This document shows, in pieces, positions 13,360 through 59,172 of a stretch of 64,000 nt of DNA. The notes beneath the pieces are model-generated. The model made no database searches. It worked only from the letters and a program-made list of their open reading frames with translations, and was not told where the DNA came from. Every line of letters starts with the position of its first letter. Within the stretch, counting starts at the first letter, position 1. Both the position numbers and the translations under genes were made by a program. The stretch covers positions 15,871,360 through 15,935,359 of the forward strand of contig NC_043019.1 in the NCBI RefSeq assembly GCF_006345805.1, given 5' to 3'. This stretch comes from Octopus sinensis. Lineage: Eukaryota.

Positions 13360-13410
13360 CTGCTGCTGAAGAGGGGAAAAAAAACACCCTGAAATGCATG
13401 CATCCAACAG
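13360..13410 (+). ncRNA. Minimal type I hammerhead ribozyme
   Basis: CTGCTG|CTGAAGA|GGGG-aaaaaaaaca-CCCT|GAAA|TGCATGCA|TC|CAACAG. Full CUGANGA/GAAA/UH core; helix I 5 of 6 bp; helix II 4 bp with a G-U closing pair; palindromic helix III. Predicted cleavage after C13404 (AUC). Confidence 0.75.
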
Positions 13411-14088
13411 TCTGCTTAGGGAACGCTGCAAATTGACTCGATGTGTTTACACTTTTCTGTCAACAGCAAGAAATTTTCTCCAAGAGAAAATAATGGTGAA
13501 TGGCTTTCTTACAGGTTTGAATATGTTTCAAGAATATTTAAACTGCTAACAAATATATATATACAAATACATACATACACATTTATACATGCAAGTGTGT
13601 GGTGTATGCATGTTGCTTCCATGTGCTGTTAATACTGATTGAATAAAAGCGATGTCCTTGTTTACAATCTCTGGTTAGCAAAAGTGCTATAGTTTTTACA
13701 CCTCCATTGCTTTCCATGCACATGGGACCAATTGGATATGAAAGCACCTTACTTAGAAAACAGGTAATACACTGCCTTTGCGTCAATTAATTTTGAAAAT
13801 AACGAAGAATTTAGTAACATAAATTAGTTATTATCGAGCTGGTGAACGGAACATAAATTAACATAAAATTTTAAAACAAGGTTTGTTTGTTTGTTTTATC
13901 TCAAAACCAAGGATGGCCTTAGGTTGGTTGGTTTCAAAAGGGTTGACATGTGTATATGTATCATATATATGTAAATACCTATCTATAGGTGTGTATGTAT
14001 ATATATATATATATATATATATATATACACACACACACACATATATATACATATACACATATGTAAATACAGATATATGATATATAAA

Positions 14089-14553
14089 ATTTCTAATCAG
14101 TAAATTGCTTGTGATTTTTTCTATTGATTTGTTTGAATGTCTACAAAAGTGTTTTAATGACAATGTATACATGTGAATGTGTGTTGTGAGTGTCTGTACA
14201 AATGTGTTTTATTGACAATGTGCACATTGGTACATGCGTATTTTATACATAAATATATGTTGTGTGTGTATGTACATATATGTGTGTGTGTGTGTGTGTG
14301 TGTATATATATATATATATATATATATATATATATATATATATATGTATATATATATATATATATATGTATATATATATATATATATATATGGAGAGAGA
14401 GAGAGAGAGCACACACACGCCAATATGCACATTATCAGAGAAACACTTTTGTATGCACCCACACATTCCCATGTGCACACTGTCACTCACAAGCTTTTGT
14501 AGACACTCACACTAATCAACAGAAAAATCACAGGCAATTTACTGATTAGAAAT
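14089..14553. repeat. Diverged long inverted repeat (~145-bp arms) around a TG/TA/GA microsatellite
   Basis: 14089-14240 (atttctaatcagtaaattgcttgtgatttttt...) is the imperfect reverse complement of 14412-14553 (...aaaaatcacaggcaatttactgattagaaat). Confidence 0.85.
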
Positions 14554-17081
14554 ATAGTCAGGAAGGGGTTAATTACTGAGGTCAACAACCTCTCCTTCGT
14601 TGTCCACCTCTTCTTCATGACTAGAACCGAACAAGTCGTCATTACATCAATGTCACCATCGTTACCGCCGCCACCGCCACAACCGTCACCATCAACTTTT
14701 TGAAATCCCATTGCAATCAGTGAGAGAGAGAGAGAAAAACACCCACCCACACAAACACACATACAGTCGCATTGTACATGTTTACTAATCTTCCTCCTCC
14801 AAGAGAGTTCACACACCGTTTACAATCAAAGTTGGAATCTGGGAGAAAAAGCCACGCTTCTATCTTCGCTAATCTAATAACGCTTTAAACCATTTCAGCA
14901 GATAATGTCATTTTAGCTTCTTGTTTTAACGAGGAAATACAGACAGTAATCAGTAATTTCAGTGGATTATTTATAACTATGAGATGAGGAATTCTGATTT
15001 AGTGGGAAGGGAGGCTGGGGCTATTACTTGTGATGGAGCTTATAACCGGAGAATCAATGATGGGAGAAAGATATCTCTGGGTAGAGATAGAATACCTGGC
15101 TTCTATGATTGATGGATAGAATCAGATTATTGGAAGATAACAAGAAAACAGGAATAATTTTCAGAAAAACATTGATTCTGAAGGCTTGTTTTATCATTTA
15201 ATAATAAGCAAAGGTATGGTTGTATGTTTAAGAAGCTTGCTTCTTAACAATGTTTTGGGTTCGATCCCACCATGTGGCACTTTGGACAAGTGTTTTTTTT
15301 GTTTTTTTATATTATAGCCCAAAGTCTACCAATGGACCCAGTGAATGGATTCAGTAGATGGAAACTGGAAGCATGAGTATCTTTGTCTTGATATCATGAG
15401 ATGGTGGTAAATGAGCATTATCATCATACAAGCAATTTTGTTCATTTCTTGTCGCCTATGAAAAATATGTTTGGCCATGGGGGAAATATTACCTTGCTTG
15501 GAAATAGATGAAGGCAGATGATGCAAAGGACACCTGGCTATAGAAAATCTGCCTCAACAAATTCTGCTTTACCCAAACAAGCATGGGGAAATGGATGTTA
15601 AATGATGATGCTGATGAAGATTTCTAACATCGGCAAAAGGGCTGGACTCAAGACACAACCAGTATAGTCAACTGAATTGACTCGGGATTAGAACTCAGAA
15701 AATCAGGGGCCATGAGTAAATATTGCTAAGAAGGCATTTGGTCCAATTCTCTATCCGTTTTACCAACCCTCCACTCCTGTACAAGATCTCAAACCCTGGG
15801 AGTGCAGCATATCTATCTTTTACTTGTTTCAGTCATTGTACTGCGGCCATGCTGGGGTTTTAGTTGAACTAAAGTGACCGCCAGTACCTAATTCTTTAAA
15901 GTTTGGTATTTATTCTATCAGTCTCTATTGCTGTACCACTAAGGTGGTTATCTACAAAGTTACATTAGTTGTCAAGTGATGGTGGTAATAATGGGGGCAC
16001 ACACACACACACAGAGGCTTCAACAGTTTCTGTTTACCAATTTCACTTACAAGAAATTGGTTAGCTAGAAGAAGACACTTGCCCAAGGTGCCACACATGG
16101 AGACTGAACCCCAAACCACAACACAGCCTTGACTTTCTTTACAGAGTAGGAGTCTACTGATGAGGGACAACAATGAGCAGAACAGAACATCTCTTCAAAT
16201 AGGAGTTAACCTGTTTATTCAACCTGCAAGAAATAGCAACCAAATCTCACTTGAATCGCAACCTACTGGTTTGAGAAAGGACAATTACAAATCTAATCCT
16301 AAATACACTATGTTTGAATGTAAATTATGTGGGCTGGTTAGTTCTACAACCACCACTACTAACAACTACTATAGTCACCACTATTAACTACAGCCAAGCA
16401 CTGTTGCTAACTACCACAACTATTGCTACTAAACTACTCCAAAAGCTATTTCAGCCCCTACTATAAACGACTACAGCCACATGTACTAATGACTTTGACC
16501 CCTGACTACTAATTATGATGAAAACTACTCTATCTCCCTCTACTAATTACTGTTGCAACTTGCCCTTTGTTGTACATGGACAAGACACTGTTTCTAATAG
16601 GTAGACTTAAAGCCCGTACCAGCATTTTATCATGGCTGGTGCCATGCCACAAAGGGAGCTGCATTAAAGACCAACATGATCGGCTGAAGCAAGTTCTGCT
16701 TGACTGCCTCACATGTACATCAAGAGATGTTCATGATGTCTCTCTCACCCAACCAGGAGGGGTTTTCCCTCCAAGACTCCCGGATTTTTAATGTGGATTG
16801 AACCACAGTCTACAACCAGAGACCCGGTGAGCTTGGATCATGTGTGAGCCAAGAGGTAGCCTTGCTATGGAGTAGGCATCTCATAACCACAGAGAAACAC
16901 ATCGGACTAAGCTGAGTAGTGGTTTGCACTACTAAATTTTATAAATCATCACTTCTAATGAATACCTCCCACTCTACCATTGACTATGAGTCAGAAAGTA
17001 ATGCAGATAAAAACTGCTTTGTTTTCTGACTCACCCCCTGTACAAAAACTACCACAGAACCCACCAGCTATCTTACTATAA

Positions 17082-57928: not shown

Positions 57929-58337
57929 CTTTTACTTGTTTCAGTCATTAGACTGCAGCCATGCTATGGCATTGCCTTGAATGAAACGAACTGATCCCAG
58001 GATGTACTTTTTGAAAGCCTGGTACTTATTCTATCAGTCTAGCAATTTTGCCGAACTTCTAAGTTATGGGGATGTTAACACACCAACATAGCTGACAAAC
58101 AGTGGGGGACAAACACAGACACTAAAACACACATAGTGTGTGTGTGTGTATGTATATATATATATATATATATATATGCACACACACGATGGGCTTCTTT
58201 CAGTTTGCGTCTACCAAATTCACTCACAAGGCCTTTGGTCGAACCAAGGCTGCAGTAGAAGACATTTGCCAAAGGTACCACGCAGTAGGACTGAACCCAG
58301 AACCATGTGCTTGGGAAGCAAACTTTTTACTACACAG
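57929..58337 (-). mobile_element. tRNA-derived SINE, family A
   Basis: Reverse-complement collinear with 49378-49762. Another copy lies at ~47536-47912(-). Confidence 0.8.
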
Positions 58338-58986
58338 ATGATAAATATATGTTGCAACTATTATACATACTAACATAGATTACACTATAATAATCAGTAG
58401 CTTTATATTCAGTGCACATTATTTTGCGTACTAACTTACACAAACTTAGAAAACATATACAGATGTATGTAATAAATATATTAATGAATATAAATACATA
58501 TTCATATATTCAGAATACACACACACACACACATATATATATATATATATATATATATATATATATATAAACATACATACATACTCACACAAACGTAGAT
58601 CTGTTTGTATGGAAAGTTATGAGTAAGCATGTAGATGTTTTGAAAAAGTTAAATGTAAACAAAAGGTTTTTAACTACAGAACACTTGACCAGAGCAACCA
58701 AACCGTCATTAGTCAATACTAGTGTACTACAAGTACACAGCAGACGGACAAGAACTGATTGACCAACACACTACTGGTCAACAAAGTAGTAGCGATCTGC
58801 TAGAAATAGCAGCAAAGCATGCCACAAAATCACACTTATATGCAGCAGATACTTTGGCCATGCCTGGAACGTCATGGATTATTAAAAATTTATTAATTCA
58901 CGGCTGACCAAATTACATGAACACACAGGAGATAGTAAAACTAATAATATATATATAATATATATATATATATATATATATATATA

Positions 58987-59172
58987 GTTAATCCAAACAA
59001 GAAAACACAAAAAAAAAAACACAACAACGCGAGGACGTGGAACAAATATAGTATTATTGGACGCTCAGGAAAGAAGGGAAGAAGGAGGGTTTAACGTTTC
59101 GAGCGGAGCTCTTCGTCGGAAACATAGAAGGGAAGACAGAGGGAAAAATCGCCAACGGTACACACGAGGTCA
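58987..59172 (-). mobile_element. Short CpG-rich element inserted in (TA)n, probably a Penelope-like terminal repeat
   Basis: About 185 bp of unique CpG-rich sequence bounded on both sides by TA/CA microsatellite and carrying a hammerhead-like motif. Confidence 0.55.
59089..59123 (-). ncRNA. Hammerhead ribozyme variant (U4C core, loop-less palindromic helix III)
   Basis: Minus strand GTTT|CCGACGA|A|GAGC-tcc-GCTC|GAAA|CG|TT|AAAC. Helix I 4 bp, helix II 4 bp, AACGTT palindrome. The core reads CCGACGA instead of CUGANGA and has one extra A before helix II. Confidence 0.55.

What the first reader, a model, noticed from the sequence alone, without database searches (positions are those of the whole stretch)
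13360..59123. Candidate system: several microsatellite-embedded ribozyme mini-elements with an orientation bias relative to the host gene
Seen: three different hammerhead cassettes plus a half-motif within 64 kb. The three full motifs are each embedded in TA/CA microsatellite, and no Penelope RT is recognisable nearby. Both canonical-core motifs flank the Ig exon on the strand opposite the gene, while the gene-sense motifs are variant or truncated. Inferred: a diverse, high-copy population of Penelope/retrozyme-like non-autonomous RNAs (possibly circular), with selection against sense-strand cleavage of pre-mRNA. With so few motifs the strand bias is only suggestive.
Basis: inference. Interest (0 to 1): 0.75.

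Follow-up and report, generated by a model that had tools for sequence, protein, structure and literature searches.

The report
Intronic Penelope hammerhead stubs, no bias
Three real hammerhead-ribozyme motifs lie in introns of an octopus protogenin-like gene, but each is one of hundreds to thousands of copies of a repeat likely spread by Penelope retrotransposons, an indirect test found no consistent strand bias, and the one unusual item is a fourth, rearranged hammerhead-like fold in a LINE tail that is predicted, not shown, to cut RNA.

Summary
The three type I hammerheads are real (3 in the window; 0.1 per shuffle) and all lie in introns of a minus-strand Octopus protogenin-like gene. Each is a copy of a dispersed family: F1 (13.4 kb) a decayed monomer of a 348-nt tandem, retrozyme-type repeat; F2 (24.2 kb) a two-armed Penelope-type stub; F3 (59.1 kb) a 200-nt unit with at least 4,958 copies, related to the pLTR of an abundant Neptune-type Penelope element. 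F3 sits in (TA)n family-wide. Its U4C core is the family norm, not local decay. An indirect strand test (T-A skew of flanks) gave no bias for F2 or F3 and a weak antisense lean for F1 (p=0.04 uncorrected) that did not replicate (p=0.41, low power). So the kinds of element are known and the selection story is unsupported, though not excluded for F1. Inside the span, a gene-sense RLE-LINE stub (18.9 kb) carries all hammerhead core letters in a split-core order with four co-varying helices in 5 of 18 distant relatives; I did not find this in print. This scan noted both Penelope stubs (this genome) and the split core (other genomes) before.

The parts
19744..20072 (-). Exon 2 (first Ig domain) of an Octopus protogenin-like gene; the whole window is intronic (intron 1 above, intron 2 below)
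   Evidence: I-set hit; spliced contigs of 4 runs from 4 studies cover exactly 19744-20072; 100% identical to proteins named protogenin-like; flanking exons in L108 and L115
13256..13549 (+). F1: partial monomer of a 348-nt tandem, retrozyme-type repeat between TA/CA runs; hammerhead 13360-13410, core CUGAAGA, G-U at 10.1-11.1, predicted cut after 13404; antisense to the gene. 5' edge approximate
   Evidence: 472 candidates, 40 scored, others 71-84% identical; two cores 348 nt apart in L047; alignment A1
24046..24251 (+). F2: Penelope-type two-armed stub: inverted tail 24046-24119 (-) joined to a sense arm 24119-24251 (+); hammerhead 24159-24205, core CUGAUGA, palindromic stem III, predicted cut after 24200; antisense to the gene
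   Evidence: 448 candidates, 40 scored, many with inverted partner hits; arms mapped; Rfam RF00163
58987..59175 (-). F3: 200-nt solo pLTR-like unit ending in (TA)n; minimal hammerhead 59089-59123, core CCGACGA plus extra A, palindromic ACGU; sense to the gene
   Evidence: 26-mer exact in 4,958 places, 2,462 forward and 2,496 reverse, 0 in the control; collinear with pLTRs behind Neptune-type ORFs
18838..19147 (-). 3' end of an RLE-type LINE (HERO-like: name recalled and from earlier scan notes); split-core hammerhead-like fold at 18912-19008 with GUC, GAAA and CUGAUGA intact; sense to the gene
   Evidence: 2,314 candidates, 40 scored, others 92-94% identical; ORF end; full-length homolog hits R2 proteins; stems and controls; extent
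43271..43586 (+). Older, decayed relative of the same LINE tail; fold broken; antisense
   Evidence: 70% to the 18.9-kb copy; no descriptor hit; extent
37480..37511 (-). Possible 'half-motif': CCGACGA plus a hairpin, no GAAA; likely chance or unrecognisable decay
   Evidence: single match in the genome at up to 2 mismatches
62329..62506 (.).
   Evidence: arms 77% alike; 146 candidates, 40 scored, some with inverted partners

Best explanation
The three hammerheads are independent copies of three dispersed repeat families that were likely copied into this intron pair by Penelope-type reverse transcriptase/endonuclease proteins, and their orientation to the host gene is likely chance. Shown: family sizes, fixed ends and (TA)n flanks of F3, the tandem 348-nt unit of F1, the inverted-arm layout of F2, and an abundant autonomous Neptune-type element in the same genome whose pLTR is collinear with F3 and also ends in (TA)n. 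Inferred: the GIY-YIG endonuclease nicks AT-rich or (TA)n DNA and the RT copies the short RNA in trans (target-primed), which gives solo pLTR-like units, inverted arms and tails. Inferred: lone copies cut host pre-mRNA little, because stem III is a short palindrome that needs a second copy (PMC4209133), at least one Penelope hammerhead needs the element's protein (PMC11167929), and the largest families carry weakened cores on both strands alike (U4C in F3, A6U in the Neptune-type family); so selection on orientation would be weak.
For: Family sizes. Autonomous element: 5,356 candidates, 150 scored; 829-aa frame with RVT_1, a CX4CxxC linker and GIY-YIG; pLTR hammerhead found behind the GIY-YIG match in 25 of 30 loci; F3 about 71% over 86 nt, E 1e-4 to 1e-5, collinear over its length. 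F3 ends: 19 of 24 records not chosen by similarity start within 12 nt of one point, 17 of 20 that reach the 3' end run into microsatellite (some records are duplicates). Strand proxy: calibration positive on the gene-sense strand in 16 of 20 kinase loci and 15 of 16 host-gene bins; F2 +0.009 +/- 0.010 (11 sense-like, 10 antisense-like), F3 +0.014 +/- 0.009 (23/17), F1+F2 p=0.23 (cut 1000); pre-set F1 replication -0.004 +/- 0.017, 12/14, one-sided p=0.41. 5 of 26 F2 and 9 of 66 F1 copies have arms on both strands. Non-ribozyme repeats in this gene split 28:19, 16:8 and 8:6 by strand, none significant.
Against: Within the 160-kb gene the single-stranded cassettes I could recognise are 5 antisense to 2 sense (a weak third sense candidate left out), and the second F3 copy just past the window is antisense with U4, though with damaged stems. 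No exact autonomous parent was found for F1, F2 or F3. The proxy is indirect: I had no gene annotation.
Confidence: 0.75

Rival explanations
1. The reader's model, limited to monomer-competent families: sense-strand copies of F1-type hammerheads cut host pre-mRNA in long introns, disturb splicing and are purged, which leaves an antisense excess.
For: F1 discovery lean and F1-versus-F3 difference; F1 has the stem III most able to fold as a monomer (3 bp with a 4-nt loop); a coral retrozyme monomer cuts fast (PMC7229834, part 2 read); Xenopus retrozymes are depleted from introns (bioRxiv 10.64898/2026.07.22.740005, part 2; strand not examined in the parts read); an intronic ribozyme is proposed to affect splicing in Cpeb3 (PMC10919898, search listing only).
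Against: Did not replicate in 26 new intact-core copies; three families tested, so the uncorrected p=0.04 is about 0.12; F2 with a canonical core shows no lean; the window F1 copy has lost G10.1-C11.1.
Confidence: 0.15
2. Selection acts on families, not strands: lineages with weakened cores (U4C, A6U) are tolerated anywhere and so reach the highest copy numbers, while canonical-core families stay small.
For: F3 U4C 4,958 exact copies and the A6U Neptune-type family against 56, 18 and 12 exact matches for canonical F1/F2 patterns; U4C lowers activity in vitro (PMC3088659, passage).
Against: Copy counts are confounded by age and pattern length (F1 and F2 are old and diverged); only four families compared; activities not measured; other canonical-core families in this genome were not counted.
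Confidence: 0.2
3. One or more copies were co-opted as regulators of the protogenin-like gene.
For: Two motifs flank exon 2; the split-core copy lies 700 nt behind it in sense.
Against: Each copy is an ordinary member of its family; the best relatives are 78-97% alike and none of the copies stands out; no conservation test across species was possible.
Confidence: 0.03

Closest known systems
Minimal hammerheads of metazoan Penelope-like elements (Cervera and De la Pena 2014, PMC4209133; parts 1-2 of 4 read)
   Same: F3 and F2: extra base before stem II (F3), G10.1-C11.1, short palindromic stem III, mostly single dispersed motifs, pairs on opposite strands 100-700 bp apart, thousands per genome
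   Different: F3's family-wide U4C and the A6U of the related autonomous family are not named in the parts read; supplements not seen
Neptune-clade PLEs and (TA)n targeting (Craig et al. 2021, PMC8557442; passages)
   Same: C-terminal GIY-YIG with CX2-5CxxC linker, pLTR hammerhead, inverted 5'-truncated arms, microsatellite bias
   Different: F3 has two fixed ends and no ORF; its exact parent was not found; clade assigned from the linker only, no tree, so Nematis is not excluded
Animal non-LTR retrozymes (PMC7229834, passages and part 2 of 6; bioRxiv 10.64898/2026.07.22.740005, parts 1-3 of 5)
   Same: F1: type I hammerhead in a 348-nt tandem unit, low GC, monomers and dimers, no ORF; PLE origin proposed in the preprint
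   Different: Window copy is an old partial monomer; one monomer folds no better than shuffles (z 0.02); no RNA or circle shown
PAc Poseidon element of Anolis (PMC11167929; passages)
   Same: Two 3' end points giving a tail (F2 has two 3' ends about 130 nt apart); hammerhead inside the terminal repeat
   Different: PAc tail is 30-40 nt; PAc cleavage is protein-assisted and not needed for insertion in vitro; untested here
Type-SGC hammerheads (HRIMA-1; Eckert et al. 2023, PMC10085705; passages)
   Same: 18.9-kb motif: blocks in S-G-C order, stems I and III formed, short linker from stem I to the strand before GAAA
   Different: No direct stem II between the strand after CUGANGA and the strand before GAAA; each pairs with its own upstream strand; genomic LINE tail rather than metatranscriptome contigs; cleavage untested

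Membership tests
PLE pLTR with minimal hammerhead (F3) | Minimal type I core with extra base at 9/10.1, G10.1-C11.1 and palindromic 15.2-16.2 | tested here: met
   U4 replaced by C in most copies
PLE pLTR with minimal hammerhead (F3) | Homology to the repeat that follows an RT-GIY-YIG ORF | tested here: met
   about 71% over 86 nt and collinear with pLTRs of a Neptune-type family: a sister family, not the same one
PLE pLTR with minimal hammerhead (F3) | Its own autonomous element (F3 joined to an ORF) | tested here: inconclusive
   none among 40 ten-kb loci and 52 5' flanks; thousands of copies not seen
Non-LTR retrozyme (F1) | Type I hammerhead in tandem units of 150-450 nt without ORF | tested here: met
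   two cores 348 nt apart in L047/L069; tandem hits in L070-L072; only low-complexity or short frames. The window copy is a single partial unit
Non-LTR retrozyme (F1) | Expressed linear and circular monomer RNA | not testable with these tools
   only assembled contigs were on offer and the runs were found with the exon
PLE-type insertion (F2) | Inverted 5'-truncated arm and one-sided tail | tested here: met
   window copy and L066-L068; 5 of 26 sampled copies two-armed
PLE-type insertion (F2) | Link to an RT-GIY-YIG ORF | tested here: inconclusive
   one decayed RT remnant about 750 nt behind an arm in L036/L068; may be unrelated
Canonical type I hammerhead (F1 window copy) | G10.1-C11.1 pair | tested here: not met
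   G-U here and in 13 of 20 core-bearing relatives
All hammerheads here | Site-specific self-cleavage | not testable with these tools
   needs in vitro transcription
Type-SGC hammerhead (18.9-kb motif) | Blocks in S-G-C order with stems I and III | tested here: met
   window copy 6 + 6 bp; 5 of 18 distant loci; 6 of 25 own-genome copies keep all blocks
Type-SGC hammerhead (18.9-kb motif) | Stem II formed directly between the strands after CUGANGA and before GAAA | tested here: not met
   0 direct pairs in all 8 sequences that passed the descriptor; so not filed as type SGC
RLE-type non-LTR retrotransposon (18.9-kb stub) | R2-like RT, CCHC knuckle and C-terminal restriction-like endonuclease in full-length relatives | tested here: met
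   homolog P0030: RVT_1, best PDB hits R2 proteins, C-terminal motifs visible; HERO clade itself not tested by a tree

The most novel reading that the evidence does not exclude
The gene-sense LINE stub at 18.9 kb carries a working hammerhead of an undescribed wiring: blocks in S-G-C order, with the core opened between A9 and G10.1 by a fourth helix that holds the 5' and 3' ends. It is conserved in the 3' UTR of a HERO-like LINE lineage across animals and would cut the element's RNA about 120 nt before its 3' end. Thousands of such stubs in this genome would then be the better set for testing orientation selection in introns.
Probability: 0.55. Interest if true: 0.7.

Novelty: new member of a known kind. 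Interest (0 to 1): 0.38.

Why it matters
The cassettes add octopus families to a known picture: Penelope-borne hammerheads are a large part of invertebrate non-coding DNA. A real antisense bias of intact copies would be population-level evidence that these ribozymes cut in vivo, an open question (PMC11167929 found no reads ending at the site); my indirect test does not show it. The split-core fold would extend the known hammerhead topologies and place a self-cleaving RNA at the 3' end of a LINE clade; no paper on this came up.

Tried and rejected
Rfam scan: 95 matches at E up to 1, nearly all microsatellite matches to miRNA models, one hammerhead hit. Monomer folding of seven motifs: none beat shuffles (z -1.6 to +1.0), as expected of short or pseudoknotted motifs; no evidence either way. 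Kinase search for calibration: 134 matches, many on unplaced contigs with stops in frame; I picked 20 chromosomal loci by hand, 4 of which gave negative skew. First-pass skew with simple-repeat masking only gave F3 a sense lean (24/16, p=0.020) that faded after masking interspersed repeats (p=0.11-0.29) and at 3.9-kb width (20/20): rejected as repeat-driven. At 3.9-kb width F2 leaned sense (p=0.068). Two-armed copies were dropped before counting (3 of 34 F1, 5 of 26 F2, 6 of 32 F1 replication). The replication used 3.9-kb, not 10-kb, stretches, which lowers its power. LINE-tail copies: 9 sense-like, 14 antisense-like, 1 without score, p=0.26 (24 loci). Direct count in the 20 kinase flanks gave too few cassettes (about 4 sense, 3 antisense distinct places). 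Search for exact parents failed. No RNA holder on record was listed, and no reads could be laid on the hammerheads themselves, so expression and cut ends are open. Viral contigs held no relative of the LINE C-terminus. 13 of 18 metagenome loci and 22 of 25 own-genome copies failed the strict split-core descriptor; several of the 13 show the same blocks with one damaged, others show none. Look-ups of F1, F2, F3 and the LINE tail among earlier scan notes by sequence gave nothing relevant.
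Full report
Observation. A descriptor for type I hammerheads finds three motifs in the window, at 13360-13410 (+), 24159-24205 (+) and 59089-59123 (-), against 0.1 +/- 0.3 in 60 dinucleotide shuffles. I wrote the descriptor after seeing the motifs. Rfam sees only the second, below its gathering score. The Ig exon is 19744-20072 on the minus strand and is identical to proteins named Octopus protogenin-like. The loose ends of the spliced contigs map to a signal-peptide exon about 63 kb upstream and an exon about 28 kb downstream; the gene spans about 160 kb. 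All motifs are thus intronic: two antisense, one sense.

What the cassettes are. F1 is a partial monomer of a repeat with 472 first-look candidates that occurs in tandem with a 348-nt period: the layout of animal non-LTR retrozymes (PMC7229834; bioRxiv 10.64898/2026.07.22.740005). The window copy is old (best relatives 78-84%) and has G-U in place of G10.1-C11.1. F2 (448 candidates) is an inverted tail joined to a sense arm; 5 of 26 sampled copies have arms on both strands, the inverted layout described for Penelope-like elements (PMC8557442, PMC4209133). F3 is a 200-nt unit whose 26-nt core matches exactly in 4,958 places. It has two fixed ends and runs into microsatellite at its 3' end in 33 of 40 copies against a background of 0.12. 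It is collinear with the pLTR of an abundant autonomous element with RT, CX4CxxC linker and GIY-YIG, whose own core reads CUGUUGA. Exact parents were not found. No Penelope ORF remnant lies in the window, which is expected for elements mobilised in trans.

Microsatellites. The motifs are 42-199 nt from the nearest TA/CA runs; 8.6% of random positions are that close on both sides. At family level the preference is strong for F3, moderate for F2 (15 of 26) and weak for F1 (10 of 66 by alignment end; 5 of 20 by located monomer end). Microsatellite bias of endonuclease-bearing PLEs is published (PMC8557442, passages).

Strand bias. The sense-strand variant is not local decay: CCGACGA is the family norm. 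Lacking an annotation, I used T-A skew of repeat-masked flanks as a proxy for gene direction; it is positive on the sense strand in 16 of 20 kinase loci (mean +0.036) and 15 of 16 host-gene bins. On the ribozyme strand: F1 -0.021 +/- 0.010 (n=31, 12/19, p=0.041), F2 +0.009 +/- 0.010 (n=21), F3 +0.014 +/- 0.009 (n=40); F1+F2 p=0.23; F1 against F3 p=0.027 (cut 1000). I fixed a replication beforehand (notes): 26 new intact-core F1 copies gave -0.004 +/- 0.017, 12/14, one-sided p=0.41; pooled F1 p=0.17. If half the copies were intronic (an assumption) and all antisense, about -0.02 would be expected, so F2 and F3 argue against a strong bias while F1 stays open. Inside the gene the recognisable single-stranded cassettes are 5 antisense to 2 sense, and ribozyme-free repeats split 28:19, 16:8 and 8:6; none of this is significant.

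Mechanism. Most likely these short RNAs were copied by target-primed reverse transcription with Penelope-type proteins that nick AT-rich DNA (inferred from anatomy and PMC11167929). Lone copies likely cut little: single minimal hammerheads showed no cleavage in vitro and dimers little (PMC4209133), the Anolis motif needs the element's protein and no reads end at its site (PMC11167929), and U4C lowers activity (PMC3088659). Weak cutting explains why sense copies persist.

The unusual item. At 18838-19147 (-), sense to the gene and 700 nt behind the Ig exon, lies the 3' end of an RLE-type LINE (2,314 candidates; the name HERO is recalled and comes from earlier scan notes). Prompted by earlier notes on scrambled hammerheads, I found GUC, GAAA and CUGAUGA in S-G-C order with 6-bp stems I and III. 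The strand before GAAA and the strand after CUGAUGA cannot pair with each other; each pairs with its own upstream strand. The same four helices, with different letters, occur in 5 of 18 metagenome loci that encode the same C-terminus; the pair next to the core in stem I takes three forms, position 15.3 all four Watson-Crick forms, and G-C before GAAA is constant. Controls: 0 of 1,800 shuffled UTRs, and 0 of 1,200 with the core words fixed. The window copy has a mismatch at the inner end of the fourth helix. It fails the type-SGC test on stem II (PMC10085705, passages), so it works like, but is not, a type-SGC ribozyme; cleavage is untested. Searches found no paper on it. This scan has noted it in other genomes.

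Verdict. The selection model is unsupported by an indirect and modestly powered test, with a residual chance of about 0.15 for F1-type families. Interest 0.38, most of it from the split-core fold.

Noticed in passing
window 60007-61007 and 61014-62003: Head-to-tail duplication of about 1 kb at 97.7% identity; recent duplication or assembly artefact.
   Followed up: no
window 62329-62506: Head-to-head inverted stub with two decayed hammerhead-like cores (one extra base in the first core block); family of 146 candidates.
   Followed up: partly
L107:102-219 (100 nt past the window's end): Second F3 copy in intron 1, antisense, with U4 core but damaged stems I and III, 3'-truncated.
   Followed up: partly
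L074-L106 loci: Very abundant, young Neptune-type element with frames up to 829 aa whose pLTR hammerhead has A6U family-wide and a long C/T- and CA-rich 3' UTR.
   Followed up: partly
L025, L007, L029, L054: At least four further hammerhead cassette families turn up by chance in flanks, several two-armed.
   Followed up: no
window 8858-10234: Fragments that look like a Tc1/mariner transposase by recall; no Pfam hit.
   Followed up: partly
host gene, L122 to L108: Clear T-over-A skew on the sense strand through the 160-kb gene, fading upstream of exon 1; a usable proxy for transcription direction in this genome.
   Followed up: yes
window 46055-46116 (-): tRNA-like match at 28.8 bits, not called by ARAGORN; likely a SINE head.
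   Followed up: partly
   Followed up: no
L039:1-1059 (-): Protocadherin-type exon about 650 nt from a two-armed F2 copy.
   Followed up: no
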